Source: a virus
Reading direction: 5' to 3' (one strand)
Virus record (IMG/VR): IMGVR_UViG_3300023178_000017
Location: 1 to 64,000 of that record
DNA: 64,000 nucleotides
Positions 40,911 through 62,403 of this stretch are shown one piece after another. Below the pieces are notes generated by a model, which had not been told where the DNA came from, searched no databases, and saw only the letters and a program-made list of their open reading frames with translations. Every line of letters begins with the position of its first letter. Positions within the stretch are counted from its first letter, which is position 1. The position numbers and the translations under genes were made by a program.

Positions 40911-42041
40911 TTATGACGTAATTGGAGATGCTGGCCACTGTTGTGACAATACACCGTCCCAACGATTCACTGGTGTTCTACCTTGTGTAGCGTAAGTACT
41001 TGGTGATCTATGTTGATAGGTAAACGGAGTTCTACCTTGTCTAGAATATGTACTTGGTGATCTATGTTGATAGGTAAACGGAGTTTGACCTTGTCTTGCA
41101 TATGTCACAGGTTGCCTATGTTGATATGTACTTGGCGATTGTGTTATTCTAGGATCTCTGTAAGTACTTGGTGATCTGTGTTGATATGTGCTAGGTACAC
41201 GATATGCTCTAGGATCTCTGTAAGTACTTGGTGATCTATGGTTATACGTGCTAGGTACTCTATAACTTCTTGGATCACGATATGTAGATGGTGATCTGTG
41301 TTGATATGTGCTAGGTACACGATATGATCTTGGGTCTTGATATGTAGACGGCGATCTATGTTGATATGTGCTAGGTACACGATATGATCTAGGATCACGG
41401 TATGTAAATGGCGATCTATGGTTATATGTAAACGGTGACCTATGTTGATACGTAAACGGTGATCTATGTTGATAAGTCGAAGGTTGTCTAGCGCCTCTAA
41501 TATTAGGTTCTTGTGCTGATACAGGGTGTCTGTAACCTGCTGGTTGTTGTGCTGATCTAATATTAGGTTCTTGTGCTGATACAGGGTGTCTATAACCTGC
41601 TGGTTGTCTAGCATTACCAATTACTGGTTGTTGTGCTGATACAGGTGCTCTATATGCTGCTGGTTGTCTAGCATTTCTAATATTAGGTTCTTGTGCTGAT
41701 CTGATATTAGGTTCTTGACCGCTTCTAATATTAGGTTCTTGTGCTGATCTAATATTAGGTTGTTGACCATTCGCAATATAAGGCGACTGGAAAGTAAACG
41801 GTTGCCTTGCGTTATTAGGTTGTTGAGCATTTGCAATATAAGGCGACTGGAAAGTAAACGGTTGCCTTGCGTTATTAGGTTGTCTAGCATTTGCAATATA
41901 AGGTGACTGATATGTAAATGGATTCTGGAATGTAAATGGATTCTGGAATGTAAATGGATTCTGGAAAGTAAAAGGTGTCTGCACAGGAACAGAAGCCTGT
42001 GTAATACCTTGAGCATTTGCTGGATAAAAACCTGTTGCCAT
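40911..42041 (-). CDS. Pro-delimited repeat protein A (antiparallel partner of 42053..43828)
   Basis: Residues 23-356 are 47 segments of 6, 8 or 10 aa, each starting with Pro. Confidence 0.9.
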   Translation of the reverse strand: MATGFYPANAQGITQASVPVQTPFTFQNPFTFQNPFTFQNPFTYQSPYIANARQPNNARQPFTFQSPYIANAQQPNNARQPFTFQSPYIANGQQPNIRSAQEPNIRSGQEPNIRSAQEPNIRNARQPAAYRAPVSAQQPVIGNARQPAGYRHPVSAQEPNIRSAQQPAGYRHPVSAQEPNIRGARQPSTYQHRSPFTYQHRSPFTYNHRSPFTYRDPRSYRVPSTYQHRSPSTYQDPRSYRVPSTYQHRSPSTYRDPRSYRVPSTYNHRSPSTYRDPRAYRVPSTYQHRSPSTYRDPRITQSPSTYQHRQPVTYARQGQTPFTYQHRSPSTYSRQGRTPFTYQHRSPSTYATQGRTPVNRWDGVLSQQWPASPITS

Positions 42042-43666
42042 TTTACTTTAGATTACTTAGGTGATGGTTTAAAGAAGAAGAAGTTGTGAGCTAATACACC
42101 ATTTGCAAAGAAATTGTGATTGTCGCCAACGTTCTTCAAGTTATACACCTGTTGTGAATCTTTCTCCTCTATTTTAATTATTTCTAGTCCTATTTCTGTA
42201 CCTAGTACAGCATCTGTCATGGTCATCAAATGATCACCGACTGCGATTTCTGAATTTACAAATTCATCTCCACCTTCTTCTTTGTGGAATTCTTTAAATT
42301 TCTCTAAGTTGATAACACCCCATTCACCATTCATTGTTCTAAATGGATGTTCTGAAGTTGTTTCAAGTATTCTACCGTCTGATAAATGTATCTCATGTAT
42401 TGATACTTCTCTTGGTTGCATCAACTCTTCGACTACACCGATCTCTAATTTATTTGTCTCTTCGTTCCAAGTCATTACGTCTTGACCAACTTCTACTGTT
42501 TCAATTGGTACATGACTGCCATCGCCCAACCATATCATTGTGCCGGCAACAAAACATCCTTTGCCACCTCCAGGAATGTTACCAGGTATTGGACCAAACG
42601 GTTGATAGAAGTACACTGCTGGGAAGATAAATGGATATCTTGCTGTTTGTTGTGTAGTACTTGGTTGCCTTGCGTTATTTGGTTGCCTTGCGTTGTTTGG
42701 TTGCCTTGCGTTATTAGGTTGTCTAGCAGCAACTGGTTGTCTTGCCTGATACGTAAACGGCGCACGGAATGTAAATGGAGTCCTTGCGTTATTAGGTTGT
42801 CTTGCCTGATACGTAAACGGCGCACGGAATGTAAATGGAGTCCTTGCGTTATTAGGTTGTCTTGCCTGATACGTAAACGGCGATCTATGGTTATACGTAA
42901 ACGGTGATCTGTGGTTATATGTAAACGGTGATCTGTGGTTATACGTATACGGTGATCTATGTTGATACGTAAATGGCACCCTATATGATCTTGGATCACG
43001 GTATGTAAATGGTGATCTGTACGCATACGTAAACGGTATCTGATATGATCTTGGATCACGGTATGTAAATGGTGATCTATGTTGATACGTAAATGGCACC
43101 CTATATGATCTTGGGTCTCTATATGTAAATGGTGACCTATGTTGATACGTAAACGGTGTTTGTGCGTTTCTGATATTTGGTTCTTGTGCAGACCTAATAT
43201 TTGGTTCTTGACCGCTTCTAATATTAGGCTCTTGAGCAGCAACTGGATGTTGATAAGATGCTGGTGTTTGTCTATTTCTTATAAACGGAGTCTGAGCACT
43301 TACAGGGTGATTATACCCAGCTGGTGTTTGTGCGTTTCTGATAAACGGATTCTGTGCATTAACAGGATGTTGATAAGAAGCAGGTTGTTGTGCGTTTCTG
43401 ATAAACGGATTCTGTGCATTTACTGGATGTCTATAGAATGCTGGTGTTTGTCTATTTCTTATAAACGGATTCTGTGCATTAACAGGATGTCTATATGATA
43501 CAGAGTTTTGTGCATTCGCAATATAAGGCGATTGAGCATTCGCAATATAAGGATACGGCTGTTGTGCATCTCTTATAAATGGATTCTGTCTATTAGCAAT
43601 ATAAGGATACGGCTGTTGTGCATCTCTTATAAATGGATTCTGTCTATTAGCAATATAAGGATATGG
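40974..43666 (-). repeat. Coding tandem repeats (18/24/54/60 bp periods) of proteins A and B
   Basis: Near-exact 60 bp duplications at about 41770-41900 and 42735-42880; 54 bp duplications at about 40990-41090 and 43540-43665. Confidence 0.9.
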
Positions 43667-43828
43667 TTGTTGTGTAGGTTGTTGACCTGATGCGTTATTC
43701 CACCCACTAGGAGTTTTAATGTAAATTTGATCTACATCTTTCCAAGTGTTTGAAGCAGTTTTAACCCATGCACCTTGGGTTGAATTCCAACCTGAGGGGG
43801 TTTTTACTTTCTGTGAGCCTGTCGCCAT
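42053..43828 (-). CDS. Pro-delimited repeat protein B with N-terminal docking-like motif and C-terminal Hint domain
   Basis: N-terminal WVKT..WKDVDQIYIKT..GW; residues 55-388 form 47 segments; Hint domain from Cys425. Confidence 0.9.
   Translation of the reverse strand: MATGSQKVKTPSGWNSTQGAWVKTASNTWKDVDQIYIKTPSGWNNASGQQPTQQPYPYIANRQNPFIRDAQQPYPYIANRQNPFIRDAQQPYPYIANAQSPYIANAQNSVSYRHPVNAQNPFIRNRQTPAFYRHPVNAQNPFIRNAQQPASYQHPVNAQNPFIRNAQTPAGYNHPVSAQTPFIRNRQTPASYQHPVAAQEPNIRSGQEPNIRSAQEPNIRNAQTPFTYQHRSPFTYRDPRSYRVPFTYQHRSPFTYRDPRSYQIPFTYAYRSPFTYRDPRSYRVPFTYQHRSPYTYNHRSPFTYNHRSPFTYNHRSPFTYQARQPNNARTPFTFRAPFTYQARQPNNARTPFTFRAPFTYQARQPVAARQPNNARQPNNARQPNNARQPSTTQQTARYPFIFPAVYFYQPFGPIPGNIPGGGKGCFVAGTMIWLGDGSHVPIETVEVGQDVMTWNEETNKLEIGVVEELMQPREVSIHEIHLSDGRILETTSEHPFRTMNGEWGVINLEKFKEFHKEEGGDEFVNSEIAVGDHLMTMTDAVLGTEIGLEIIKIEEKDSQQVYNLKNVGDNHNFFANGVLAHNFFFFKPSPK
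42083..42556 (-). other. Hint (bacterial intein-like) autoprocessing domain
   Basis: CFVAGT.I start, TTSEHPF block B, VYNL...HNFFANGVLAHN end; +1 residue is Phe; no endonuclease domain. Confidence 0.9.
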
Positions 43829-46159: not shown

Positions 46160-46419
46160 TAGATAGTACCTCCGTCAACTTGCGGTAATGAAAACTCACC
46201 CGTTGATGAGTTATAAGATAAATTCGTTTCTCCAGATGCTAATGAAATAGCACCTCTTGCTTTTGCGTTAGTAAAATATTGATTCGTTGCACCTTCTGTG
46301 ATGTCATCTGAGTCTAGTGCGGATACTGATCCAGCGGTAATTTTACCAGCACTAGTTATGACCTCTGTAGAACCGATGTTTAATCCGTATTCTATAACAA
46401 AATTATTTTGTGTTGCCAT
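46159..46419 (-). CDS. Small virion fibre-associated protein
   Basis: N-terminus paralogous to 43862..46159 (NF.I..GL.IG.TEVI.S.G); one EG.TN.YFT repeat; ends DGGTI. Confidence 0.7.
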   Translation of the reverse strand: MATQNNFVIEYGLNIGSTEVITSAGKITAGSVSALDSDDITEGATNQYFTNAKARGAISLASGETNLSYNSSTGEFSLPQVDGGTI

Positions 46420-46507
46420 GGTTAGTGTGTCCTAATTGAGTGTATACAGTATTATTTAGTAGAGATTACTCTTCAAAAAGGTGGTTTAAACAAAATTTAA
46501 ACAAAAA

Positions 46508-47248
46508 TCATACTTTAATTAATTGACGTGACCATTTGAATACAGTCGAGTTTGCAGAAGCAGGTGTAATCTTTAAAACTACATTACCACTTTCAACTGC
46601 AACTGATACTGAATACAACGAACTATTTGTAACTATCTCAGCGTATTGTGTAAAGTAAGCAGTTGAACCGTCATGAATTACAACAACTTCAGATGTGTGA
46701 TAGTTTGTACCCTCTGTTGCTTGTAAAATATACTTAGCACTTCGATAATTTGATAAAGAAAACGAATCTAAGTCTGTTTCCGATGTTGTAGTGGTTGTTG
46801 TACCTGTATTACTATCAACAACCAAACTATCGATTGTTAATGTGTCTGAAGCAGTGATAGTAGTGCATGTTAAATCACCAACTTCTAAAGCTGCTTTAGC
46901 GTAACCTGTGCCTGAAGTGTTAACTGTTGTAGTAGGTTCTACTTCTAAACCGTCAAATAATTTCCATGTAGAATCACTAGCATCTCTAAAAAGACCTGTG
47001 AACTCATTGCCGCTGTCTGATAAACCATCATCGTAGTTACCATATAACCCTATGTCAACTGTATCTGAACTCGTGTTTGAGTTCGCAAGTTCGATCATTG
47101 AGTCTATAACAGACGTGGTTGTACTGTTAACGGTAGTTTGTGTACCATTAACTGTTAAATTGCCTGTGATTGTCGCATCGCCATCGACCAACAGGTCTTG
47201 ACCTGTTTCTAGTCCTATGTCTGCATAAAATTTTGATTTTGTTGCCAT
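46508..47248 (-). CDS. Virion structural protein (fibre segment plus shared C-terminal beta domain)
   Basis: [15 protein letters not shown]; C-terminal LDSF...YRSAKY...YHTSEV..IHDGS...TQY. Confidence 0.7.
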   Translation of the reverse strand: MATKSKFYADIGLETGQDLLVDGDATITGNLTVNGTQTTVNSTTTSVIDSMIELANSNTSSDTVDIGLYGNYDDGLSDSGNEFTGLFRDASDSTWKLFDGLEVEPTTTVNTSGTGYAKAALEVGDLTCTTITASDTLTIDSLVVDSNTGTTTTTTSETDLDSFSLSNYRSAKYILQATEGTNYHTSEVVVIHDGSTAYFTQYAEIVTNSSLYSVSVAVESGNVVLKITPASANSTVFKWSRQLIKV

Positions 47249-47297
47249 AATAATCTCAAAAATATATTCTCAGTACTATTTATGACTTTTTGGAAGT

Positions 47298-47324
47298 AAA
47301 AGAAAGGGGATCATGTGATCCCCT
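47298..47324 (-). terminator. Intrinsic terminator
   Basis: AGGGGATCA-tg-TGATCCCCT with a U-rich tail on the minus strand. Confidence 0.7.
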
Positions 47325-47344
47325 CTCAAGAAAGTTGCTTAGTT

Positions 47345-47755
47345 CTAAGCGCCTACTAAAGTCCTGTGGAATTTAATAGTTGTACTGTTTGCTGAGGCAG
47401 GTGTAATTCTGAGTCTCAAGTCGGAACCATTAATGTCAGCATCGAATGATGCAACACTAGTGTTTTTCAATGTACCGTATTGAGTCATGGTTACTGCGCT
47501 TCCGTCATGTACTAATACTATCTCAGTTGAATGATAGTTAGAACCTTCTGACATTGCAATAACATATCTAGCAGCTCTAAAGTCAGCATGGGCAAAAGTG
47601 TCCAAGTCGACTTGAGATGTAGATGTTGTTGTTAATGCTGTAGACGTTCTATGTTTAGTATCCAACTCTTTAGAAGTAGTGATGACATCATTAGATGAAT
47701 CGTAAGACAATACTCTAATTAACTCAGCGACTTTAAATGCATTTGTTTTAGCCAT
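47345..47755 (-). CDS. Virion structural protein (shared beta domain)
   Basis: LDTF...FRAARY...YHSTEIVLVHDGS...TQYG...ITPASANST. Confidence 0.7.
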   Translation of the reverse strand: MAKTNAFKVAELIRVLSYDSSNDVITTSKELDTKHRTSTALTTTSTSQVDLDTFAHADFRAARYVIAMSEGSNYHSTEIVLVHDGSAVTMTQYGTLKNTSVASFDADINGSDLRLRITPASANSTTIKFHRTLVGA

Positions 47756-47765
47756 TGTCTACTCC

Positions 47766-48593
47766 TTATGATAACCTAATTTGGAAGGTTTTGAATGTTG
47801 TATTAGTATTTGCAGGAGTCACAAGCAATCTCATGTTTCCTGAATTTACATCTGAACTTAACGTGAATAATGAAGACGCTGAATATACATCGCCATATTG
47901 AACGAAGTAAGAATTCGAGCCATCATTAATCAATAATACTTCTGCTGAATGTGTGCCAGCTGATGCATGTGATGCCATGATCACATACTTAACTGCCTTG
48001 TTGGCAATTGCGTTTGCTGATAACACCTGATCTGCTGTAGTAGCAGTAGCTGATAATGTAGTGAAGTAACCTTGAACAAGGTTAGCTGCACTAGTAATAG
48101 CGACTACTTCAACAACATCACCATTTAAAGCATTTTCCGTTAATGTGATAGTTGATGAGCTGGTAGCAGTATAGTCTGCACCACCACCTACTAACTTAAC
48201 ACCGTTAATGTACACTTGTTCATAACCTGAGGTATATGAAAGTGAATTACCATTATCATCGTTACCTGTAATTGAAGTACCAGTTGATGATATAGTGTAA
48301 GTGAATGTTTGTACACCCGAAGATGGTTGGTCTGACCAACTCAAAGTTCCTGAACCATCAGTTTTTAAAATCTGATTTGAGGAACCATCACTTGTAGGAA
48401 AAGAGAAAGCATCATTAACAGTTAAAGAAGCTGGATTCGATCCAACTTCTACAACAGCAGCTGAGCCGTCATTCTTCTCGGTATAAAATCTACCATGATA
48501 AGTATTGACAGCTAATTCACCTAGTGATAGATCACCTATACCAGGCAAAGCGCTTTGTGTAGAACTCCTTTTAAATTGTATTAATGTTGCCAT
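47766..48593 (-). CDS. Virion fibre protein with Mtd-N-like N-terminus and shared beta domain
   Basis: IQFKRS...LSLGELAVN; DGSSNQILKTDGSGTLSW; C-terminal domain paralogous to both neighbours. Confidence 0.7.
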   Translation of the reverse strand: MATLIQFKRSSTQSALPGIGDLSLGELAVNTYHGRFYTEKNDGSAAVVEVGSNPASLTVNDAFSFPTSDGSSNQILKTDGSGTLSWSDQPSSGVQTFTYTISSTGTSITGNDDNGNSLSYTSGYEQVYINGVKLVGGGADYTATSSSTITLTENALNGDVVEVVAITSAANLVQGYFTTLSATATTADQVLSANAIANKAVKYVIMASHASAGTHSAEVLLINDGSNSYFVQYGDVYSASSLFTLSSDVNSGNMRLLVTPANTNTTFKTFQIRLS

Positions 48594-48621
48594 TGTTCTC
48601 TCCTATAGATTAGATGTTAAA

Positions 48622-50190
48622 TTAGAATGTACCACCGTCTATAGCAGTAACAGATACAGCACCTGAAGAGACTGTAAAGTTACTTGAGTCGAATGAAGCA
48701 ATACCTTTAGCAGATGTTGTAGCATCATCGATTGCAACATCACCAGATGTTACAGTAAAGTATGAAGCTGAGAAAGATGCGATACCTTTATTAGCGTCTG
48801 TTGCATCTTCACCTGCTATTGTTATACTACCGTCAGCGTTTGTTACATCGATACCTTCGCCAGCTGAAAGAGCAGCAAGTTCCATATCTCCGTTAGAACC
48901 ATTACCAATTAGTAATTGTCCTGCTGTAGGAGCTGCACCGTCTATAGAAGTAATTGAACCTGAAAGTGCAAGTCCTGAAACTTCTAAGTTACCGAATACT
49001 GCGTTACCTACTGAACCAGAGAATACTGAAGATGTGTCTGTAGCGTCTTGGATAAATTTAAATTTACCGTCAGAATCATCCATACCAAAGAAACCAATTT
49101 TAGCAGTAGAACCATTGTGCCACTTAAATTTGATACCTCTGTCTAGGTTGTCATCTGAAGCGTCATCACCGATTTCAAACACTGGATCTGCAACTGAAGT
49201 AGTTGTAGAGTTTACAGTAGTTGTAGTACCGTTAACAGTCAAGTTACCTGAAACTGTTAAGTTACCTGAAGCGGCAATATTTGTTGATGTAATGTCATCT
49301 GAAGTTAGTGTACCATCTACTTGTACGTTGTTAAACTGTACGTTTGATGATGTGCCAACATCCTGACCGATTGCTAATGTTACGCCGTTGCCTGAAGCAG
49401 TTGATGAAACACCAGTACCACCTAAAACAGAAAGTACTTCTGAGTCAAGGTCGATAGCAATAGATGTAGTACCATCTGAGATGTCTAAATCTTGTGCTGT
49501 TACTTGTGAATCAACATATGCTTTAACAGATTGCTGTGTAGGAACTTTAACGTCTGAATCAGAAGCCATGTTGTCTTCGTCAACTAAGAAGTCAATGTTT
49601 CCTACTTGAACTGCGTTAGCTTGAATTGCAGTAACACCTGAAGCGTTAACTGTTATGTCACCTGAAAGTGAAACGTTATCAAATGAATCTGTACCATCAT
49701 AGATCAAAATTTGACCTGATGAAGGAGCAGAAATATCTGAGTCTGATGCACCAGCAAGTGTTGAAGTTGTAGATACGAAAGAAAGGTTTCCTGAAGCATC
49801 TGTTGCAAGAACCTGGTTAGCAGAACCATCAGCTGATGGTAATGTAAAGGTTACTGAACTTGCAACTGAATCAGGAGCTTTCAGACCAACGAAGTTTGAA
49901 CCGTTGTCTGAATCTTCTCTAAGTTGTAATGAAGCACCAGAAGTTGCACCGTTACCAACAATAAAGTTTGAAGGCGTTGGAGCATCACCGTCTACGATAT
50001 CGGTATAATATTTACCGCCGATTTCGTGAATAACAGCTGATGAGCCTGAGTCTACTGACTCGATATACAATTTAGCAGAAGCACCGTCATTCGATCTATC
50101 CTGTACATACGCTAATTCGCCTTCGCTCAAGTCTGAGACTGTTGGCGCACTCGCTCCTGTACTTCTTTTAATTTGAATAACTGTTGCCAT
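48622..50190 (-). CDS. Tail fibre protein with Mtd-N-like N-terminus
   Basis: [10 protein letters not shown]...L.EGELA; [15 protein letters not shown]; KGIASF repeats; ends IDGGTF. Confidence 0.8.
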
Positions 50191-50329
50191 TTTTTTCTCC
50201 TAAAAAATGAATTGGGTTTAATATAAAATTTGCAAATTTCTAGTTCACATATCCCTAGAAGATCATTATCTATCTCGTCCTCTCACAATGAGGGTCGTGT
50301 CTCACTGAATGACACCTTGATTGTAATAG

Positions 50330-50337
50330 TATTTATA
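50330..50337 (-). promoter_or_regulatory. T4 late promoter TATAAATA (representative copy)
   Basis: Exact minus-strand TATAAATA also occurs at 22262, 26174, 28811, 31399, 36437, 50927 and 63985, each just upstream of a late-region gene. Confidence 0.8.
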
Positions 50338-50340
50338 AGA

Positions 50341-50583
50341 CTAAAATGTTCCGCCGTCTATAACAGTGGTAGTAACCCACTTATCAGACGATGCGTTATA
50401 TGCCAATAGGCCGTTATCTGTTTCACTAGCATCTACATCTGATAGTTCTTGTATAGATTTAGCTGATAGATTGACATTAGTAGATGAGTTACCAATTGCA
50501 ACTTGTTTTACTCTAAAGTTACCTTGACCTTGCACCTTTCCTGAGATGCCTGCTACTCTTCCTACTACACCTTTAATTGCCAT
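50341..50583 (-). CDS. Small virion protein
   Basis: LSDVD...GLLAYNASSDKW motif; ends IDGGTF. Confidence 0.7.
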   Translation of the reverse strand: MAIKGVVGRVAGISGKVQGQGNFRVKQVAIGNSSTNVNLSAKSIQELSDVDASETDNGLLAYNASSDKWVTTTVIDGGTF

Positions 50584-50585
50584 AC

Positions 50586-50921
50586 TTAACTCCTAGTTAC
50601 ACCTGGCGTTATAATAGCTTGTCCTTCGACAACTCTACTAGTTTGACCACCAGAACTTGTTATGTTTAAGTCATACAGATATCTGCCTGGATTTAGAGCA
50701 GTTGTTTGTGTATCTGTTAAAGACAAAGTGACCTGACCTGAAGCCTCTGAAATAGATGTAGAAAATGTTGCACTTACTGAAGAAGACGTATATGTTTTTC
50801 TCATTTGTGCAGCTGCTGAATAACCTGATAGGTCTAAAACTGAACCATCAGAGTTTGTTACATCTACTGTAATGCTGAAGTCTGAACCTTGATCTATGTA
50901 AAGATTTGCTATAATTGCCAT
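50586..50921 (-). CDS. BppU-N-like virion adaptor protein
   Basis: NLYIDQGSDF...DLSGYSAAAQMRK...LSLTDTQT..L.PGRYLYD...RVVEG...TPGVT. Confidence 0.7.
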   Translation of the reverse strand: MAIIANLYIDQGSDFSITVDVTNSDGSVLDLSGYSAAAQMRKTYTSSSVSATFSTSISEASGQVTLSLTDTQTTALNPGRYLYDLNITSSGGQTSRVVEGQAIITPGVTRS

Positions 50922-50938
50922 ATTACTATTTATACGGA

Positions 50939-51868
50939 CTAATTATTTAATTGGGAATATGGGACTTTTGTATGTATTTTTTCTACTGTAGTTGGATCAG
51001 TTTTTACGTATGCTTCTTCTAATTGTTTTACAGTACCGTCTGCATCTTTAACATAAACTTGTTTAACTTCTGCTACAGGACCTATAGGTCTTCTGCTAGA
51101 ATATGTTATCTGATATGTAAATGGTGATCTATGTTGATATGTAGTTTGTACAACAATGTTACCACTTCTTGTATTCTGAGCATTTGCAATATATGGTGAA
51201 GGTTGAGAAGCAGAAACCCTATATGTATCTGGCGATCTATGTTGATACGTAAATGGTATTCTATGTTGATAGAACGATGGTGATCTATGTTGATACGTAA
51301 ATGGTGTTCTACCTGTTGTAGGATATGTTATAGGTTGCCTATGTTGATATGTTGTTGGTGTTCGCCCTGTTGCCTGATATGTTGAAGGCTGTCTTGCATC
51401 TCTAATAAATGGATTCTGTCTATCAACAGGATGTCTGTAAGTTGTAGGTGAAGGTTTATTTCTTATAAACGGATTCTGTTTATTTACAGGATGTCTGTAA
51501 TTAGCTGATATACGATAGCTACCAATTATCGGATTCTGTCTGTTAACAGGATGTTGATAAGCTGCTGGTTGACGTTGATTTGCAACATAAGGTGATGGTC
51601 TATTTCTAATAAACGGATTCTGTTGTTGTGCAATGTATGGTGATTGAAATGGACTTCTTGCGATAGCAGCTGTCTGTGCGTTTGCTATGTAAGGAATAGG
51701 CACTCTAGTATTAGCAACTGTCTGAGCGTTTGCTGATGCACGGGCATTAGCAATGTACGGCACAGGCGTAGTACCGTTAGTAGAATTTTGTCTATTAGCA
51801 ATATAAGGATACGGCTGTTGTCCTGGCGTTGCGTTTGAATTGCTATATGTTACTTGTACGGTTGGCAT
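50939..51868 (-). CDS. Repeat protein C (antiparallel partner of 51870..53534) with C-terminal docking-like motif
   Basis: Residues 19-260 form 33 segments; C-terminal VKQVYVK..GTVKQL..AYVKT resembles the N-terminus of protein B. Confidence 0.88.
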   Translation of the reverse strand: MPTVQVTYSNSNATPGQQPYPYIANRQNSTNGTTPVPYIANARASANAQTVANTRVPIPYIANAQTAAIARSPFQSPYIAQQQNPFIRNRPSPYVANQRQPAAYQHPVNRQNPIIGSYRISANYRHPVNKQNPFIRNKPSPTTYRHPVDRQNPFIRDARQPSTYQATGRTPTTYQHRQPITYPTTGRTPFTYQHRSPSFYQHRIPFTYQHRSPDTYRVSASQPSPYIANAQNTRSGNIVVQTTYQHRSPFTYQITYSSRRPIGPVAEVKQVYVKDADGTVKQLEEAYVKTDPTTVEKIHTKVPYSQLNN

Positions 51869-51869
51869 T

Positions 51870-53534
51870 TTATACTATTATTGGCCCCCCACTACCTGCA
51901 TTATATGCTGCTCTTAAACTTATGGGGCTTGATGACCAAGAACCGTTGAAGTATGAAGCTATATGAAAATATGTATAATAAGTGTCTGTGCCTTTTGTTG
52001 CTTTTATTCCAAAATAAACATCATTTGATGTTAATTGTACTGGATTACCTGTGCTGTCGTATACACCCCACTTAAAAAATCTAGCAGTGCGAGTACCATT
52101 AAATCCACCCCTTGAAGTTGAACCAGACCAGAAATTATAATATTGGCCTCTGGTTTTTCCACAAACATGTGGATAAAATCCATAACTGTTTCCACCTCCT
52201 CCGTAACAATTTGTTTGAGCTTGAGTACCTGATACCGATTCACCACTTGCATAATATGCTACATCAAAATTCCAAGTATCGTCAATTATACCATTAGCAT
52301 TCAAATCGGTAATAGGCATATAAAATCTATAATAAAAACTCCAACCACTATTACTAAAAGAGTTATAATGACCATACGATATTCTAAAAGCCCCTAAAGG
52401 ATTTGTCTGAACAGTATTATTGTTAGCTGCAAAATCAAATTGCATATAACAACCACATTCGGTATGATTAAAACCAGGATTACCAGTTGCTAATTGAAGA
52501 GTATTCCAACTTGGTACACTAAACATAGAAGCAGTTCCTGAAGGTGGGTCAGAATTTATATAATTCGTACTACCACCAAAAGGATATACATCCCAAACAG
52601 GATTACTTATACCTGAGCCCCAAGGTTGAGGGTTCGGTTGATTAGCTAAAGTTGCACTTGTTGCTGTTGAACTTCCAGACAGTGCTGATTCGCCTACAAT
52701 ACCTTCATATGATGTTGGTACCTGAGCAGTCGATGGTGACTGATATATGTAAGGCGTTTGGCCTTGTGCTGAATAAGTCGAAGGCGATTGATAAATGTAA
52801 GGCGATGGTCTTTGCGCCTGATACGTAAACGGATTTTGATAAATCGATGGCACCCTATATGTTTGAGGACTTCTTTGTTGTGCTTGATAAGTTGAAGGCA
52901 CTCTATAAGGTACAGGTTGTTGATTTGACTCCTGTGCGTTTATATTTGCTGGTGACTGGTGTTGATACGTAGTAGGTTGTTGTGCCTGATATGTTACAGG
53001 ATTTCTGTAACTTCTTGGGTCACGATATGTACTAGGTGATCTATAAGCATAACTTACAGGATTTCTGTAACTTCTTGGGTCACGATATGTACTAGGTGAT
53101 TGATGTTGATACGCAACTATAACCTGTGCATTTCTTGGGTCTCTATAAGTTGAAGGACTTTGATGTTGATACGTAAACGGTGTTTGTGCGTTTGCAGGAT
53201 ACGGATACGGATTCTGTCTATTAGCAATATAAGGTGATTGTGCATCGGCCTGATAAGTATACGTTTGTTGTGCGTTTCTTATAAAAGGATTTTGTCTCGA
53301 TCTTATGTTAGGTTGCTGTGCGTTTCTTATAAAAGGATTTTGCCTATTAACAGGATTTCGATAAATTATTGGTTGTTGATTCTGATAAGTCGAAGGAGAC
53401 TGAAACGTATAAGGAACAATCGATGGTTGTTGTCTTATATTTGGTTCTTGAATGTTAGCAGGTTGCCTTGCTATGTAAGGTTGCTGAAAACTACCGCCAT
53501 TTAAATTGTGTTTAATGTAAATTTTATCTGCCAT
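51870..53534 (-). CDS. Repeat protein D with C-terminal globular (putative receptor-binding) domain
   Basis: Residues 19-260 form 33 segments; about 270 aa aromatic/Gly/Asn-rich non-repetitive C-terminus. Confidence 0.88.
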   Translation of the reverse strand: MADKIYIKHNLNGGSFQQPYIARQPANIQEPNIRQQPSIVPYTFQSPSTYQNQQPIIYRNPVNRQNPFIRNAQQPNIRSRQNPFIRNAQQTYTYQADAQSPYIANRQNPYPYPANAQTPFTYQHQSPSTYRDPRNAQVIVAYQHQSPSTYRDPRSYRNPVSYAYRSPSTYRDPRSYRNPVTYQAQQPTTYQHQSPANINAQESNQQPVPYRVPSTYQAQQRSPQTYRVPSIYQNPFTYQAQRPSPYIYQSPSTYSAQGQTPYIYQSPSTAQVPTSYEGIVGESALSGSSTATSATLANQPNPQPWGSGISNPVWDVYPFGGSTNYINSDPPSGTASMFSVPSWNTLQLATGNPGFNHTECGCYMQFDFAANNNTVQTNPLGAFRISYGHYNSFSNSGWSFYYRFYMPITDLNANGIIDDTWNFDVAYYASGESVSGTQAQTNCYGGGGNSYGFYPHVCGKTRGQYYNFWSGSTSRGGFNGTRTARFFKWGVYDSTGNPVQLTSNDVYFGIKATKGTDTYYTYFHIASYFNGSWSSSPISLRAAYNAGSGGPIIV

Positions 53535-53535
53535 A

Positions 53536-55443
53536 TCATATCACAAACCATAAATGTCCAACTTCTTTACCTGTACCACTTGGTGTACCAGATAGTGAAG
53601 AAGCACTAACAACTTCATAATCTAACTCAACATCATCGCCGTCTAATTTAACACCGTTTGATGTGTTCACTGATAAAGTAGCAACACCATCTAATGAATC
53701 ACCTGAAGAACCTGCGTTATAAGATTTCGCAAGACCTGAACCAGCAGATATGACACTATTTACTCTATCATCTGTAAAGTATTTATTAGTTTGTTCTGAT
53801 ATAGAATCGGTACCTGTTGAGTTATCTGCAACTTGTAAATCACCATTAGAATCAAATACTAGTATTTGACCAGCAGATGCACTAGATGTACTACCTACAT
53901 CTGTTAAATCAGATATAGCAGAGTTCATTGTTGTGTTTATTGATACATTGCCTTTAGCAGTCTGTGTGACTGAACCTGTAACTGCACCAGTCAATGAAAA
54001 GTCTGAATTATCTAAAACTAAATCTAAAGTATTATCTGAGTCATCATAGGTAACTGAAAGACCTGATTCAGTGTTTGAACTAATCATTGTACCGACTGTG
54101 TCAGCAATTCTTTCTACAATGTCATCAACTACAAAACTAGAACCGTTGTACTTAAGAACACTATTAGTATTTGCGCCACTTGTATTTACATCTGAAAGAT
54201 CATCGATACTAGCAGCTGCGATTCTAGCGTCTGCTCTACCGTCTGTATAATAAAGATTAGAACTTCCTTCTGTTAAATCATCAGTGTCATGGTTTGATAA
54301 ACTTGAAACTGTACCTGTAAGATGTCCTGTTGATACATTTAAAACTGTTGTTGAACCGTCTGCTGTAATTGTAGATAATCTTGCAGTAGCATCGGTACCA
54401 TTTGTACCGTTATCGATGATTGTTTGACCACCACTTGATAGAACATCACCTTTTAGATTACCATTAAAAGTAGTTGCAGTCATGTCTGTTGCATGAATGT
54501 TCTGCCATTTTAGTATACTACTTCCAAGTTCGTGTGTGTTGTTAGCACTTGGTAAAACATCTGAGTCTATTGAACCTGTGAATGATATTGTATCACTAGA
54601 TGCGTTACCTAAATCGATGTTACAATTCAGTGATGATAATCCATTAACTGTTAAAGCGCCAGTAGTTGTAACTGTTGAGGCATTTAAATCACCGCCTGTA
54701 AGTGTTGCAGTTCCATCACTCAATGTACCCACGTTGACTGTTGCGCTAAAGTTTGCATTTACACCACCAGTAATACTACCTGAGTTGATACTCATGGTGC
54801 TATCAGTAATTGTAGGCGCAGTCATTACACCGCCTGTTGTGATTGTTATATCATCTTCTGCAAATGTTTTACCTGCAAGTTGAATGTTGAAACCAGTCTC
54901 TAATTCTGTTGTGTTATTTGTGTTTGAAGCATTAAGAATAACACCATTTGAGTTGTTGTTAAAGATTGAGTTTGTATCTGATAACTGCCAGTATGAAGCA
55001 CCTGTACTTGCTAATGCAGTACCTAAGTATGAACCTGTGTAAGAATATAGAACGAATCTATCGCCATTTGATAAACCAGAACCGTATGTAGCACCTTGTA
55101 AGTTAATTCTTCCATAACTACCATCTGAATTTTGGCTAGTGATCTGATAGTCTATACCTTCTATTAAGTGAGAACCGTTGACAAAGACCTGAATTCGGTC
55201 TTGTACAAATTTCATCACATTGTTAAACTGATCAGCGCCTTCGAAATGCGTTTCACCACCAGTTGCAATATACACATACTCTTGGAAGTAAAATGCTTTA
55301 TCTTCTACACTATTAACAGCGTCAACTAAAGTTGCTTGAGCAGTAGTTCTAAGACCACTAATATCACCCACGTCATTAGCCAACACATTATATTGTTGTC
55401 TAAAATTTTCTATAGTACTGAAACTGTCTACTGTTTTAGCCAT
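53536..55443 (-). CDS. Tail fibre-like virion protein
   Basis: N-terminal T.ENFRQ.YN...DVGD...L.T.A...LVDAVN; TDDLTEGSSNLYYTD repeat; C-terminal GTPSGTGKEVGHLW. Confidence 0.75.
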   Translation of the reverse strand: MAKTVDSFSTIENFRQQYNVLANDVGDISGLRTTAQATLVDAVNSVEDKAFYFQEYVYIATGGETHFEGADQFNNVMKFVQDRIQVFVNGSHLIEGIDYQITSQNSDGSYGRINLQGATYGSGLSNGDRFVLYSYTGSYLGTALASTGASYWQLSDTNSIFNNNSNGVILNASNTNNTTELETGFNIQLAGKTFAEDDITITTGGVMTAPTITDSTMSINSGSITGGVNANFSATVNVGTLSDGTATLTGGDLNASTVTTTGALTVNGLSSLNCNIDLGNASSDTISFTGSIDSDVLPSANNTHELGSSILKWQNIHATDMTATTFNGNLKGDVLSSGGQTIIDNGTNGTDATARLSTITADGSTTVLNVSTGHLTGTVSSLSNHDTDDLTEGSSNLYYTDGRADARIAAASIDDLSDVNTSGANTNSVLKYNGSSFVVDDIVERIADTVGTMISSNTESGLSVTYDDSDNTLDLVLDNSDFSLTGAVTGSVTQTAKGNVSINTTMNSAISDLTDVGSTSSASAGQILVFDSNGDLQVADNSTGTDSISEQTNKYFTDDRVNSVISAGSGLAKSYNAGSSGDSLDGVATLSVNTSNGVKLDGDDVELDYEVVSASSLSGTPSGTGKEVGHLWFVI

Positions 55444-55654
55444 TTATTTTCTCTTCTATCTTTCTAAGAAGTTCCTTAACTTCGGTTACTTCTTGTCTTA
55501 AACTATTTATTTCCTTTTTCTGAGAAGCAATGATTTGTCTTCTTCTCATTACCAATTTAAACTGTTCAACATCTGTATTGATAATTGCTTGTGAACTTTC
55601 TTCTCTAATTAGATTTGAATGTCCTTCAACCTTTATCATGCTAATGCTATACAT
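55436..55654 (-). CDS. Small coiled-coil protein following the VrlC-like gene
   Basis: [18 protein letters not shown] motif typical of marine T4-like phages. Confidence 0.7.
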
Positions 55655-58600
55655 CTAAGACCAGAAATTATTGGTACTTGAGATGTGTTTGTAGCCTGTC
55701 CTACAATCTTAATTATAAAACCTGTAAATTCAGGTAAGTTGTCTGCTGTGTATTCGTATTCTTTAAAGTTTCTAGCGTCTTGATCAATAGCTGTGTCAGG
55801 ACCACCAGTTGAGTTAAAGAATTCAAATCCTAAATCATCTACTGGTGTATCTTCATCGTTTTTGATGAGTTTGTATAAAACTTTAATGTCTGAGTTAGGT
55901 GGTCTAAAGTTATCTGATAAAACTTTCAATGATGTAGCAGGATTCTTTAAACTTACCAATCTTGTTGTGTATACCATTGCGTTGTTATCGCCATCTGGTT
56001 CTGTTGATGGTACGTAAACTTCACCATCTGATAGATCGGCAGCAGAATCAATATCATTAATTCTGTTCATAATACCTAGACAACCAATTGTACCTGTATC
56101 AATGTAAGGTGATACGTTTGGATTTGATGATCTCATTTGTAGTAATAATCTAAATGATCTCTGGTTACCCATTCTCTCTAATTCGTTGAGGGGTGATGCA
56201 ACAACACTTGGTCTACTGAAGTAAACGTTATCGTTTAATTTAATAAAGTCATTTGCAGTTCTTCTTACATATTCAGTATCTAAGTTTGAATCTTCTGGTG
56301 AACCCATACCTGTTCTATTAATACTTGAGAATATTTGAGTATTATTAAATGTTATAGAAGGTATCATTGTATGAATTGCATCATAATAGATGTTTCTTGT
56401 ACTTCTAACTTGACTACCACCGCCATCTACACTTTGAGTTGCAACAAAACTTGTGCCGCCTTCTAAGTCATAAGATGACATTACAGATGTTCTAGGTAGA
56501 ACATTAAATGAGTCTATACTATAATCTTGTAGACTCTCGTGTGTACCGTTAATAGCTGCAACTGGAATACCACCCAATGTGTTTTCAACATTGGTGACAC
56601 TTACTGTAAATGTTTGACTGTCGATTGTGACTGTAATAGTGTCGTTCACTGCGTAGTCACTACCTGGATCAGTAATCTTAATTGAGTTTACTGCATCTAA
56701 ATCTCCAGCGTCTACAACTACTTTGACTTTAAGACCTGTACCTGTACCACCTGTTACAACAGCATCATTACTTCCACCAGTCTCGTATGTCTGTGCTGTT
56801 ACGGCAGCACTAATAGCACTTGGTGTGCCAATCTCTACTACGCCATCTTCTTTATCGCCTTTCACGCCTGCTATTGTTACGTGTGAAGTTGTTTCGTACA
56901 TACCGTGTGAGTAGTTTAATATCTTAACATAACTTTGACCAGCAAATGTTTGAACTGGATTCTCTTGTAGTTTTACATCTCCGATAAAATCGTTTTCAAA
57001 CACAACTTCTGCAACTTTTGAGGTATCGAATTGTGCAATCTTAAGATTGAACTTGAGATCGTCTGTTTGTTCTGCTGTCCATGTTGATGCGTTTTGTGAT
57101 AAGAACAATGAACCAGCATATGGTTGTCCTGAAATTGTTTCACCAGTAATTAAATCGTTTTCGCCCATTCTGGATATGAAACATTCGTATTCGTTTGAGT
57201 TTGATAAAACTACGAAACAGTATTCTTTACCTTTCTCTAGGTATACAGGCGAATCAAATGTAAATGTTGTAGCACTTGAACCGTCTTCTGAAATATTAAC
57301 TTCGTTTGGATTCTTAGATACTGTTGAGAATGGTAATACTAACTGACCTGGATAACCATTCACCATGTTTCTAACTTGTACTGACACTGGTAGTGCATCG
57401 TCTTTAGTTCTAAAGAATAGATCAACTGAAGACAACATCATGCCACCATCCATATCTACTAAGAATGATTCTGCTAATGGATCGACCCACTCTGTCTCAC
57501 GCAATTCTCTCTCATCGAATATTCTAGGAATTCTAGGATCAACGTCCCAAAAATCTCTAGGGTCATCAATAGGCGGTGGTGACGGTATCGGCGTACTTGT
57601 TGGTGTCGGCGTTGGTGTCGGTGTCGGTGTAGGCGACGGTGTAGGCGCAGGAGTTGTTGTCGGCGCTGGCGTCGGCGTAGGTGTCGGTGTAGGACTTGGT
57701 GTAGGCTCTGGAGTCGGTGTTGGACTCGGTATAGGTGCCTCAGTAGGTTCTGGTGTAGGTGTAGGTGCTGGAGTTGCAGGTGGTTCTGGACTTGGCTCAG
57801 GTGGTGTACCTGTACCAGGTGTTACGTTTAATAACTCACCTCTTCTTACTATTTGTCTCTCAGCAGATAGCCTTTCAATAACTACTCTACCATTCCTTGT
57901 TGATACAATTTCAGTTTGTGAAGCTTGTAATAAACCTTGTGCTTGATAGATTGCATTACCTCGTGATGCTGGGTTAGAAAGGTTATTTGAACTTGATGTA
58001 ATAACCATTTCTCTAGCACCAGTTGGGAATCTCTGGAATCTATCGTTAGGTAAACTGAATGTTGCTCTTAATCTACCGTTACCATCTGTTTTTACTATTT
58101 GATCGTATGATGTACCACCATCTTTACTGTACAGTGTACTGAATGGTTTTACATATGAGTTTACATCGATACCATCAAAGAATACGTAATGGTTTGTGTT
58201 TGGTTTTAAGTTAACTGCATCTATTTCAATGTCTCTTGGTCTACAGAATGGTACAATTGTGACACTAACAATTCTATCGTTACGTGTTTCAACTAACTCT
58301 TCTACAACCGATGTTCTAACACCTGTTCTGATCTGAGACTCAGGTGTTTCTGTTACATTTCTTGTAACAGTAGTATTAGGTGTATATTCACCACCTTGTG
58401 AAGGATCACCGTTCCAAGCTGCTGGAACACTTGATAATGTCTCTGTCTCTACAACTGTAGGTTCACCTACCCATGTAGTCTGCCATGCGTTCCAAACAGT
58501 GCCTAATGCGTTTTCGTTCTCTGCTAATATTGCATCGAAGTTGCCTTCTCTGTTAACTCTTACTTCTGGTAATTGTTCTGTGTCTTGCCAGATGTCTGTC

Positions 58601-61600: not shown

Positions 61601-62403
61601 TTAGATAATGTAAGATCAAATTTTAATCTATCGGCACCAGGCGCATTATCGTTTGATGAGCCTTGTGCATTGTCTAAGAGACTATTATCTTCTGTTGATG
61701 ATATGATAGTTTCATTGATAGAAAGACCAACTCTATATGAAGGATTACCTGCATATTTTTCTAATACGATAAGTTGTTTGTCTACCTTTACAAAGAAACC
61801 TCTTGTAAAAACTACACCTTCTGAAATTTCTGCAATTGAAGCACGACCAGTTGGTGTTGATGATTGTGATAATGTTTTAAAGTAGTTGTTGTTTGTTGCT
61901 ACAGCAGAAGTTGATCCAAAACCGTCAGCTGAGAATTCTACTTCTCTTATTTCTTCTGAACCTTTGAATATAAAAGAACCATCGCTGTCTGTACCTTGTG
62001 ATAATGCTTTTACAAATAGTGTTATAGAATCATCTTCAGTTTCAGCAGTTGATGAAATAACTTTTGCTACTACACCTGTTGTTAAACCTTGAATGAGTTT
62101 GCCGTGAAAACTAGTTCTATAAGATTCTACGTTTAGATCGCCGTTTGCATTTGGATTTGAATTTTGTACTTTGACAAAATAGATGTCCATGTCAATGTTT
62201 GACTGAGCACCTGAAACAATAGAACCTTCTTTAAAGAAATGATCACCAAATTTCTCTACCTGATCTTGTAGAATAGATTGAGTTTGAGTTAACTCTCTCG
62301 CTTGAATTGGTCGACCAGCACGATACAGAACTTTATGAAATTTCTTGTCTGCATCGTAATCATCGTAATATGGTGTAATATTTAGATCCGTTTTCTCTGA
62401 CAT
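55636..62403 (-). CDS. VrlC-like (DUF4815-type) large baseplate/virion protein
   Basis: [10 protein letters not shown]...[51 protein letters not shown]; internal Pro/Thr-rich linker. Confidence 0.85.
57571..57820 (-). repeat. Pro/Thr/Glu/Ser-rich (xP)n linker within the VrlC-like protein
   Basis: [33 protein letters not shown]...PIPSPPP. Confidence 0.9.

What the first reader, a model, noticed from the sequence alone, without database searches (positions are those of the whole stretch)
50939..53534. A second, diverged zipper pair with a different barcode obeys the same rule
SEEN: protein C (50939..51868, residues 19-260) read forward and protein D (51870..53534, residues 19-260) read backward align in 33 segments, 242 aa each: 10,6,10,6,6,10,6,4,8,8,8,6,6,8,6,6,8,6,6,8,10,8,10,8,8,8,6,6,8,8,8,6,6. 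Example pairs: PYPYIANRQN/PSTYSAQGQT, PYVANQRQ/PVTYQAQQ, PAAYQH/PRSYRN, PVNRQN/PSTYRD, PFIRDARQ/PFTYQHQS, PTTYQHRQ/PYIANRQN, PFQS/SNQQ. Caveat: several boundaries here lack Pro or contain an internal Pro and were placed by me. The barcode differs from that of A/B. INFERENCE: this independently replicates the system, and the different barcodes could keep the two fibres from cross-pairing.
Basis: partly seen in the sequence, partly recalled or inferred. Interest (0 to 1): 0.9.

Follow-up and report, generated by a model that had tools for sequence, protein, structure and literature searches.

The report
Two-gene antiparallel phage fibre zipper
Two adjacent late genes of an uncultured marine T4-like phage encode proline-punctuated repeat proteins that match each other segment for segment only when one is read backwards. 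About 50 other phage gene pairs, plus natural single-chain versions, obey the same rule, which points to an undescribed kind of two-chain beta-structured tail fibre.

Summary
C residue i faces D residue 279-i.

- **Register.** A pairing matrix trained only on the A/B pair gives one register for C/D: 88.7 bits, next best 3.7, z=42 against segment shuffles. Non-cognate A/D and C/B score nothing.
- **Not DNA.** The partner genes share no antisense similarity.
- **Generality.** In 49 of 50 distinct adjacent gene pairs from other IMG/VR contigs the same matrix finds a unique antiparallel register. Shafts span about 180-540 residues. Indels are coordinated between partners, and pairs sharing a genome are orthogonal.
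- **Periodicity.** All 4,707 prolines in matched spans keep one parity.
- **Contacts.** Position 2 of a segment covaries with the last residue of its partner, whether the segment has 6, 8 or 10 residues. That fits proline facing proline in an antiparallel beta ladder.
- **Hairpins.** Natural single-chain forms exist.
- **Setting.** Both pairs sit at fixed places in the host-recognition cluster.

No paper, Pfam family, solved structure or GenBank phage matches. Structure prediction gave no usable model, so physical pairing and stoichiometry remain inferred. First readers noted the A/B pair earlier in this same genome; the scan has no note on other DNA.

The parts
51870..53534 (-). Gene D: the upstream ("outbound") chain, 554 aa
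   Evidence: ORF. It has 361 metagenomic homologues, all unnamed.
53481..53534 (-). D residues 1-18: the conserved type-2 N-terminal tail
   Evidence: The same N-tail type occurs in all type-2 pairs and in the single-chain forms.
52755..53480 (-). D residues 19-260: the zipper shaft paired with C. Regular repeats run on to residue 272.
   Evidence: Register K=279. All 37 Pro are of one parity.
51873..52718 (-). D residues 273-554: C-terminal extension. A linker is followed by an all-beta domain from about residue 338, taken to be the distal tip.
   Evidence: AF2 with 35 sequences gave pTM 0.66, with beta strands over model residues 74-271. No clear fold match.
50939..51868 (-). Gene C: the downstream ("returning") chain, 309 aa
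   Evidence: ORF. An exhaustive search found 120 clusters at 50% identity.
51089..51814 (-). C residues 19-260: the zipper shaft paired antiparallel with D
   Evidence: All 31 Pro are of one parity.
50942..51088 (-). C residues 261-309: the conserved type-2 C-terminal tail. In the antiparallel arrangement it lies beside D's N-tail.
   Evidence: Conserved in all type-2 pairs and in the fused forms. In the fused homologue, AF2 puts short strands here at pLDDT 62-74.
51866..51872 (-). D stop codon TAA, one base, then the C start codon ATG: a near-abutting junction
   Evidence: Intergenic gaps in the other pairs are mostly -20 to +65 nt.
53536..55443 (-). A 635-aa fibre-repeat protein that always lies directly upstream of the type-2 pair
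   Evidence: Synteny in 10 of 10 type-2 loci.
50586..50921 (-). A 111-aa LtfC-like protein that always lies directly downstream of the type-2 pair
   Evidence: PHROG 1084 and 3304, annotated as L-shaped tail fibre assembly, E 2e-30 and 4e-22. Synteny.
42053..43828 (-). Gene A: upstream chain of the paralogous type-1 pair, with a C-terminal Hint domain
40911..42041 (-). Gene B: downstream chain of the type-1 pair

Best explanation
C and D are the two chains of one long tail-fibre shaft, made late in infection.

**Proposed structure.** Over about 242 residues the chains lie antiparallel and in a single register, with C residue i facing roughly D residue 279/280-i. Together they form a continuous beta ladder. 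Prolines recur every 4 to 10 residues, always an even number, and sit opposite each other.

**Two faces.** One face of the ladder carries Tyr, Phe and His packed against Ala, Ser and Gly of the partner, large residue against small. The other face carries Pro, Gln, Arg, Thr, Asn and Ile.

**What fixes the register.** The aperiodic order of 6-, 8- and 10-residue segments, together with a residue-type code, makes only one register and only the cognate partner fit. In that code the PFTYQHRS type faces the PNIR/PFIR type, and the PSTYRD type faces the PVNRQN type.

**The two ends.** D's N-tail and C's C-tail meet at one end. Both are conserved, so this is probably the virion-proximal anchor. D's variable beta domain and C's N-terminus meet at the other end, probably the receptor-binding tip.

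**Shown:** the sequence complementarity, its uniqueness, its covariation, its generality, and the genomic setting.

**Inferred:** physical pairing, beta conformation, role as a fibre, polarity on the virion, and any higher assembly. By analogy with other fibres, three such hairpin-like pairs might bundle with the aromatic face buried.
For: 1. **Unique antiparallel register** for C/D from matrices trained on other pairs. Parallel alignment and non-cognate partners give no signal.
2. **Generality.** 59 of 75 related IMG/VR loci carry exactly two adjacent same-strand genes of this type. In 49 of 50 distinct complete pairs the matrix finds a unique register, and the proline coincidence peak falls one residue from it.
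3. **Partner specificity.** Cognate pairs average 206 bits and non-cognate pairs 12 bits. The best partner is the cognate one in 36 of 44 cases, and the exceptions are near-identical loci.
4. **Coordinated indels.** Close relatives differ by the same block in both genes, for example 18 residues in L045 versus L059 and 46 in L031 versus L033.
5. **Period of two.** Every matched boundary spacing is even. None of 4,707 prolines is out of phase, which is the periodicity of a beta strand.
6. **Residue covariation inside paired segments.** Position 2 couples to partner positions L and L-2 in 6-mers, 8-mers and 10-mers, with z of 13 to 29 and size-complementary pairs such as F-A, F-G, L-Q and S-N.
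7. **Natural single-chain proteins.** L077 and about 30 homologues carry the type-2 N-tail and C-tail in one chain. L077 and five of its closer homologues (P0019, P0056, P0070, P0106, P0123) clearly pair with themselves in the same way.
8. **No antisense DNA similarity** between partner genes.
9. **Genomic setting.** Both pairs hold fixed slots between fibre genes in the host-recognition cluster of a relative of pelagimyophages (PMC7029224). Late-promoter motifs lie on the coding strand, and no terminator-like site was found across 50300-55700, which covers the 635-aa fibre gene, D and C.
10. **Weak support from AF2.** In the AF2 model of the single-chain form, the only strands in the repeat part are residues 20-34 and 416-430. 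Their residue numbers sum to 450 at both ends, close to the predicted register K=451. Confidence there is low, pLDDT about 45-54.
Against: - No physical evidence of binding, of beta structure or of presence in virions.
- AF2 models of the repeat part are of low confidence.
- Both chains are strongly cationic, net +25 for C and +16 for D, so they must pair against like charge.
- C/D is the most degenerate pair seen. Only 21 of 33 boundaries have Pro in both chains, and the last 28 residues match in total length but not in boundaries.
- One related pair, L051, needs a 30-residue gap.
- The matrix scores all rest on one family, and its members are related.
- Repeat units duplicated together inflate the covariation z-scores.
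Confidence: 0.72

Rival explanations
1. Each chain folds alone, for example as a beta-solenoid with prolines at the corners. The two rods then only lie side by side or end to end, and the mirrored module order reflects matched rod shapes rather than strand-to-strand pairing.
For: Blocks such as 8,6,6 (20 residues), 8,8,8 (24) and 10,8 (18) resemble solenoid rung sizes. The ESM Atlas model of C is nearest to a leucine-rich-repeat solenoid, but only at TM 0.48 and from a model of pLDDT 0.47.
Against: - The rung perimeter would have to change along the rod, since periods of 18, 20, 24 and 44 occur within one protein.
- Strict parity over hundreds of residues is not expected across solenoid corners.
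- The covariation links position 2 to the partner's last position whatever the segment length, which is what strand pairing predicts.
- Single-chain forms place the two halves as hairpin arms.
Confidence: 0.12
2. C and D do not touch each other. Both bind a third elongated template, such as another fibre protein or the tail, in opposite orientations, and that template imposes the same barcode on each.
For: Several other long fibre proteins are encoded next to the pairs.
Against: - Neighbouring fibre genes are 50-75% identical across loci, while barcodes range from about 180 to 540 residues. No neighbour varies in step.
- Size-complementary covariation (F-A, L-Q) between the two chains argues for direct contact.
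Confidence: 0.07
3. The mirror relation is a by-product of DNA events such as inversion, antisense overlap or gene conversion, and carries no structural meaning.
For: The repeats are recombination-prone, and alternative frames stay open across them.
Against: - blastn with word size 7 finds no minus-strand match between partner genes, while plus-strand matches are plentiful.
- The same motifs occur in forward orientation in both chains. Only their order is reversed, and each type faces a different type, which no DNA inversion can produce.
Confidence: 0.02
4. The repeats are flexible, disordered or polyproline-like cationic tethers. The apparent pairing reflects shared composition and shared history.
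For: - Low-complexity, Pro/Gln/Arg-rich composition.
- Low pLDDT in the AF2 and ESM Atlas models.
- A compositional hit to CFAP276.
Against: - Composition cannot give a single register at 88 bits against 3.6 +/- 2.0 for shuffled segment order.
- Composition cannot explain coordinated indels.
- A period of exactly two residues does not fit polyproline-II, which has a period of three.
Confidence: 0.05

Closest known systems
Needle domain of the phage T4 long-tail-fibre tip, gp37
   Same: It is an elongated fibre part built from antiparallel beta strands that run out to the tip and back (described in PMC7291167). The single-chain relatives found here (L077 type) have the same out-and-back topology.
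   Different: - gp37 is one chain per hairpin, whereas here the outbound and returning strands are usually two genes.
- gp37's needle is about 100 residues, whereas these shafts are about 180-540.
- gp37 is held by His-x-His iron sites, and the C/D and A/B repeats have none.
- No sequence similarity to any solved structure.
- The proline punctuation and length barcode have no counterpart in gp37.
Heterospecific alpha-helical coiled coils (leucine zippers)
   Same: Two chains recognise each other along their length through a short-period repeat and a residue pairing code. Orthogonal pairs can coexist.
   Different: The period here is 2 rather than 3.5 residues. Proline every 6-10 residues rules out helices. 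Orientation is strictly antiparallel. Register is set by an aperiodic series of segment lengths. This comparison rests on general knowledge, not on a test made here.
Triple-stranded beta-helices and beta-spirals of phage and adenovirus fibres (T4 gp5C and gp12, adenovirus shaft)
   Same: They are fibre shafts made of short beta-strand repeats of 6-15 residues.
   Different: Those are parallel homotrimers with one repeated unit. Here there are two different chains, antiparallel, with complementary rather than identical units. No Pfam or PHROG fibre-repeat family matches C or D.
Tandem beta-zipper binding (bacterial fibronectin-binding repeats)
   Same: A repeat-bearing chain adds antiparallel strands in series along a partner.
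   Different: That partner is a string of folded modules, whereas here both partners are repeat chains of the same family. This comparison rests on general knowledge only.

Membership tests
T4 gp37-type needle / tail-fibre tip | Sequence similarity to gp37 or to other solved fibre tips | tested here: not met
   phmmer against all PDB chains finds nothing for D. For C it finds only a compositional hit to CFAP276.
T4 gp37-type needle / tail-fibre tip | His-x-His metal-binding motifs along the needle | tested here: not met
   No HxH in the repeat regions of A, B, C or D.
T4 gp37-type needle / tail-fibre tip | Out-and-back antiparallel strand topology | tested here: inconclusive
   Supported by sequence complementarity and by the single-chain forms. 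No confident 3D model was obtained.
Collagen-like phage fibres | Gly-X-Y triplet repeats | tested here: not met
   Gly is 0.4-2.7% of the repeat regions, there are no G..G..G runs, and the period is 2 rather than 3.
Known Pfam or PHROG fibre-repeat families | A profile match at or above threshold | tested here: not met
   C and D have no Pfam match at E 0.1 or better and no PHROG match at E 0.01 or better. A and B have only sub-threshold Cementoin hits, which are compositional.
Antiparallel two-gene zipper family (defined here from A/B) | Two adjacent same-strand genes whose Pro-delimited even-length segments match in reverse order | tested here: met
   23 Pro coincidences at x+y=280, against 13 +/- 1.6 in shuffles. 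Segment table.
Antiparallel two-gene zipper family (defined here from A/B) | The same residue-type pairing code in a unique register | tested here: met
   88.7 bits at K=279, next best 3.7. An independent matrix gives 88.5 bits at the same K.
Antiparallel two-gene zipper family (defined here from A/B) | All prolines of the shaft in one parity | tested here: met
   C 31 of 31 and D 37 of 37.
Antiparallel two-gene zipper family (defined here from A/B) | Physical heteromeric assembly | not testable with these tools
   Needs co-expression, cross-linking or EM.

The most novel reading that the evidence does not exclude
These phages encode a genetically programmable antiparallel beta-zipper. Two chains form a fibre tens to well over a hundred nanometres long. 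Partner choice, register and length are written in a barcode of 6-, 8- and 10-residue proline-bounded segments plus a large-against-small residue code. This would be a beta-sheet counterpart of coiled-coil heterospecificity. It evolves by matched block insertions in two genes and can exist as orthogonal pairs in one virion.
Probability: 0.55. Interest if true: 0.95.

Novelty: categorically new. Interest (0 to 1): 0.9.

Why it matters
If the two chains pair as the sequences imply, this is a new architectural principle for protein fibres. It would be a long hetero-chain beta ladder in which simple, readable sequence rules set register, partner specificity and length.

- **Phage biology.** Fibre length could be retuned by matched repeat indels in two genes while anchor and tip stay fixed. 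Two such fibres could be made in one cell without mixing.
- **Protein design.** It offers natural, orthogonal, length-programmable beta-strand pairing modules, which are far scarcer than helical ones.
- **Evolution.** It poses a clear question: how do two genes keep their repeat arrays matched?

The family is abundant in marine viral metagenomes yet absent from cultured phages, Pfam and the PDB.

Tried and rejected
- **Complex prediction.** D 1-285 with C 1-309 returned "no answer": ipSAE 0.00, partner pLDDT under 50, controls not run. This counts neither for nor against binding.
- **AF2 of the single-chain homologue.** With a 31-sequence alignment, mean pLDDT was 40.6, so there is no usable 3D model. 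Only the strand positions were noted.
- **Fold search of D's C-terminal domain.** Foldseek against the PDB found nothing at E of 0.001 or better. VIA-align wide gave a best Z of 4.5, mixed beta-sandwich and adhesin hits within the noise.
- **GenBank phage records.** megablast and tblastn of C, D, A's N-tail and C's C-tail found no match. BLAST's low-complexity filter weakens the whole-protein searches.
- **Cultured relatives.** B found nothing in the genomes of HTVC008M, Melnitz and Mosig.
- **ESM Atlas.** The nearest clusters are unnamed viral proteins. The structural neighbours rest on a model of pLDDT 0.47.
- **Literature.** Searches by motif, by pelagimyophage fibres and by beta-ribbon or antiparallel fibre terms found no description.
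- **Antisense or inversion origin.** Rejected.
- **Promoter and terminator scan.** Nothing above shuffles.
- **Read laying.** Contigs from RNA libraries hold exact pieces of C and D, but such libraries can contain DNA, so transcription is not shown. The uncovered bins mean nothing.
Full report
**What is there.** The window is part of a 105-kb IMG/VR virus record. It carries T4-type portal, major capsid, sheath, terminase and gp8 genes. The capsid protein is 65-66% identical to those of Methylophilales phage Melnitz and Pelagibacter phage HTVC008M.

Genes D (51870..53534) and C (50939..51868) lie on the minus strand, with D's TAA and C's ATG separated by one base. They sit between a 635-aa fibre-repeat protein and a 111-aa protein that matches L-shaped-tail-fibre assembly families. 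This is the region that the pelagimyophage literature calls the host-recognition cluster, downstream of VrlC (PMC7029224). T4-type late-promoter motifs lie almost only on this strand, and no terminator-like site was found across 50300-55700, which covers the fibre gene, D and C. A paralogous pair, A (42053..43828) and B (40911..42041), lies 8 kb away.

**Checking the observation.** Cutting at prolines shows that all four proteins are built of 6-, 8- and 10-residue segments that begin with Pro. Of the 33 segments, 21 begin with Pro in both chains, 11 in one chain and 1 in neither.

Without any manual segmentation, proline positions in C and D coincide antiparallel 23 times at x+y=280. Shuffled segment order gives 13.0 +/- 1.6, with a maximum of 19 in 5000 shuffles. 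For A/B the figures are 47 against 19 +/- 3.

A log-odds matrix of facing residues, trained only on A/B, was slid over every antiparallel and parallel offset of C against D:
- One register stands out, K=279, at 88.7 bits. The next best is 3.7 and the best parallel alignment is 7.6.
- A/D and C/B have no positive register.
- Shuffling D's segments gives 3.6 +/- 2.0 bits (z=42.6).
- A matrix trained only on pairs from other contigs returns the same register at 88.5 bits.

**Not a DNA artefact.** The partner genes share many plus-strand blastn matches but no minus-strand match, and ungapped antisense identity shows no peak at the expected offset. The same motifs occur in forward orientation in both chains. 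Only their order is reversed, and each type faces a different type.

**Generality.** A scan of IMG/VR with D returned 75 loci. Of these, 59 hold exactly two adjacent same-strand genes of this kind, and most of the rest are cut by contig ends.
- Among 50 distinct complete pairs, the A/B matrix finds a unique antiparallel register in 49, and the proline coincidence peak always falls one residue beyond it. Parallel alignment gives nothing. The exception, L051, fits over 124 residues and then needs a 30-residue gap.
- In a 44 x 44 all-against-all comparison, cognate pairs average 206 bits and non-cognate pairs 12. The failures are near-identical loci.
- Matched spans run from about 180 to 540 residues. 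Close relatives differ by the same block in both genes, for example 10,8 in L045 versus L059.
- In four genomes that carry both pair types, cross scores are 11 bits or less against 78-390 for cognates.

**Two types and a fused form.**
- Type-1 pairs (A/B-like) share one N-tail on the upstream chain and a 20-residue C-tail on the downstream chain.
- Type-2 pairs (C/D-like) share a different short N-tail and a roughly 48-residue C-tail.
- The upstream chain's C-terminal extension varies: a Hint domain, D's beta domain, or almost nothing.

So the two conserved tails meet at one end of the antiparallel pair and the variable part lies at the other. This is the usual logic of a fibre with a conserved anchor and a variable tip.

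Locus L077 has a single 488-aa gene in the type-2 slot. It carries the type-2 N-tail and the type-2 C-tail in one chain, and it pairs with itself at K=451, with 18 proline coincidences at 452. About 30 further such proteins exist. Five of the closer ones (P0019, P0056, P0070, P0106, P0123) clearly show the same self-pairing. These natural hairpins are strong support for an out-and-back topology and for equal numbers of outbound and returning strands.

**Clues to the structure.**
- Every matched boundary spacing is even: 661 of 6, 936 of 8, 292 of 10, and none odd.
- All 4,707 prolines within matched spans of 49 pairs keep one parity. In this window the counts are 31 of 31 for C and 37 of 37 for D. 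A strict period of two residues over hundreds of residues is the signature of an unbroken beta strand.
- Positions in phase with proline are P, Q, R, T, N and I. The other positions are Y, A, F, S, H and V.
- Within one class of paired segments, the strongest covariation links position 2 of one segment with the last and third-from-last positions of its partner. This holds in 6-mers (z 17.8), 8-mers (z 22.6 and 29.3) and 10-mers (z 13.8 and 13.1), with size-complementary combinations.

This is what antiparallel strand pairing with proline opposite proline predicts. A Pro-Pro pair can sit at non-hydrogen-bonded sites of such a ladder (general knowledge of beta-sheet geometry). The physical register is therefore probably i+j=280, one residue off the scoring register.

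**What could not be shown.** The complex predictor gave no answer. AF2 of the fused homologue was poor, with mean pLDDT 40.6. Its only strands in the repeat part are residues 20-34 and 416-430, whose end residues sum to 450, which is weakly in line with K=451. D's C-terminal part folds as an all-beta domain (pTM 0.66) with no convincing structural neighbour.

Both chains are strongly cationic and lack Lys, Leu, Met, Trp and Cys in the repeats. How like charges are accommodated is unexplained. Stoichiometry beyond one-to-one, the polarity on the virion and even presence in the virion are all inferred.

**Occurrence.**
- An exhaustive HMMER pass over 1.84 billion cluster representatives finds only 120 clusters at E of 0.001 or better, so this is a small closed family.
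- All homologues are unnamed metagenomic proteins.
- Nothing is found in GenBank phages or in three cultured pelagimyophage-type genomes.
- The exact C/D DNA occurs in salt-marsh metagenomes. A 96%-identical copy spanning both genes, with no indel in the repeats, occurs in a 2024 marine run.

**Comparison with what is known.** The nearest structural analogue is the six-stranded antiparallel needle of T4 gp37 (PMC7291167). C/D fails its membership tests: no sequence similarity and no His-x-His sites. Collagen-like, triple-beta-helix and other profile families do not match either. Searches of the literature found no description.

**Verdict.** The finding is real. It replicates the A/B rule in a second, orthogonal pair, and it belongs to an undescribed family of two-gene (sometimes one-gene) antiparallel repeat fibres. 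First readers had already noted the A/B pair and the covariation on this same genome. The scan holds no note of it on other DNA.

Noticed in passing
42053-42620 (C-terminal part of gene A): A carries a Hint/intein-like domain right after its zipper (Pfam Intein_splicing E 5e-8, below the curated cut-off, plus several other Hint families). Many type-1 relatives have it, while others end 14-45 residues after the zipper. In the antiparallel arrangement it lies next to B's N-terminus, so it may cleave itself off or link the chain end to something.
   Followed up: partly
L077:6001-7464, with homologues P0019, P0056, P0070, P0106 and P0123: Single-chain versions of the type-2 pair, with N-tail and C-tail in one protein and self-complementary arms. 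They occupy the same syntenic slot and lack the beta tip domain.
   Followed up: yes
46159-50583: The 80-aa, 522-aa and 86-aa proteins all end in the same short motif, ..DGGTF or ..DGGTI. The 275-, 136- and 246-aa proteins share a C-terminal domain of roughly 80 residues. These look like families of interchangeable fibre parts.
   Followed up: no
Window-wide, including 50927-50934 and 50330-50337: The T4-type late-promoter motif TATAAATA occurs 12 times, 11 of them on the coding (minus) strand, against 6.8 +/- 2.5 in shuffles. None lies between the 635-aa fibre gene, D and C.
   Followed up: partly
Repeat regions of A, B, C and D: All four shafts are strongly cationic, net +33, +32, +25 and +16, and lack Leu, Met, Trp and Cys entirely. 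Lys is also absent apart from two residues in C. There is no explanation yet for how like-charged chains pair, or for what the charge does at the cell surface.
   Followed up: partly
L050 and L051: Two irregular pairs. L050's upstream chain fits L067's downstream chain (270 bits) better than its own (162 bits). L051 needs a 30-residue gap. They may be recombinants, assembly chimeras or real bulges.
   Followed up: partly
57365-57946 (inside the 2255-aa VrlC-like gene, 55636-62403): A long Pro/Thr/Ser-rich linker (runs of TPxP) sits in the middle of the giant baseplate-associated protein.
   Followed up: no
39277-40881: A 534-aa protein with a weak glycosyltransferase family 8 match always follows the type-1 pair, in 10 of 10 loci. 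It might modify the fibre or the host surface.
   Followed up: no
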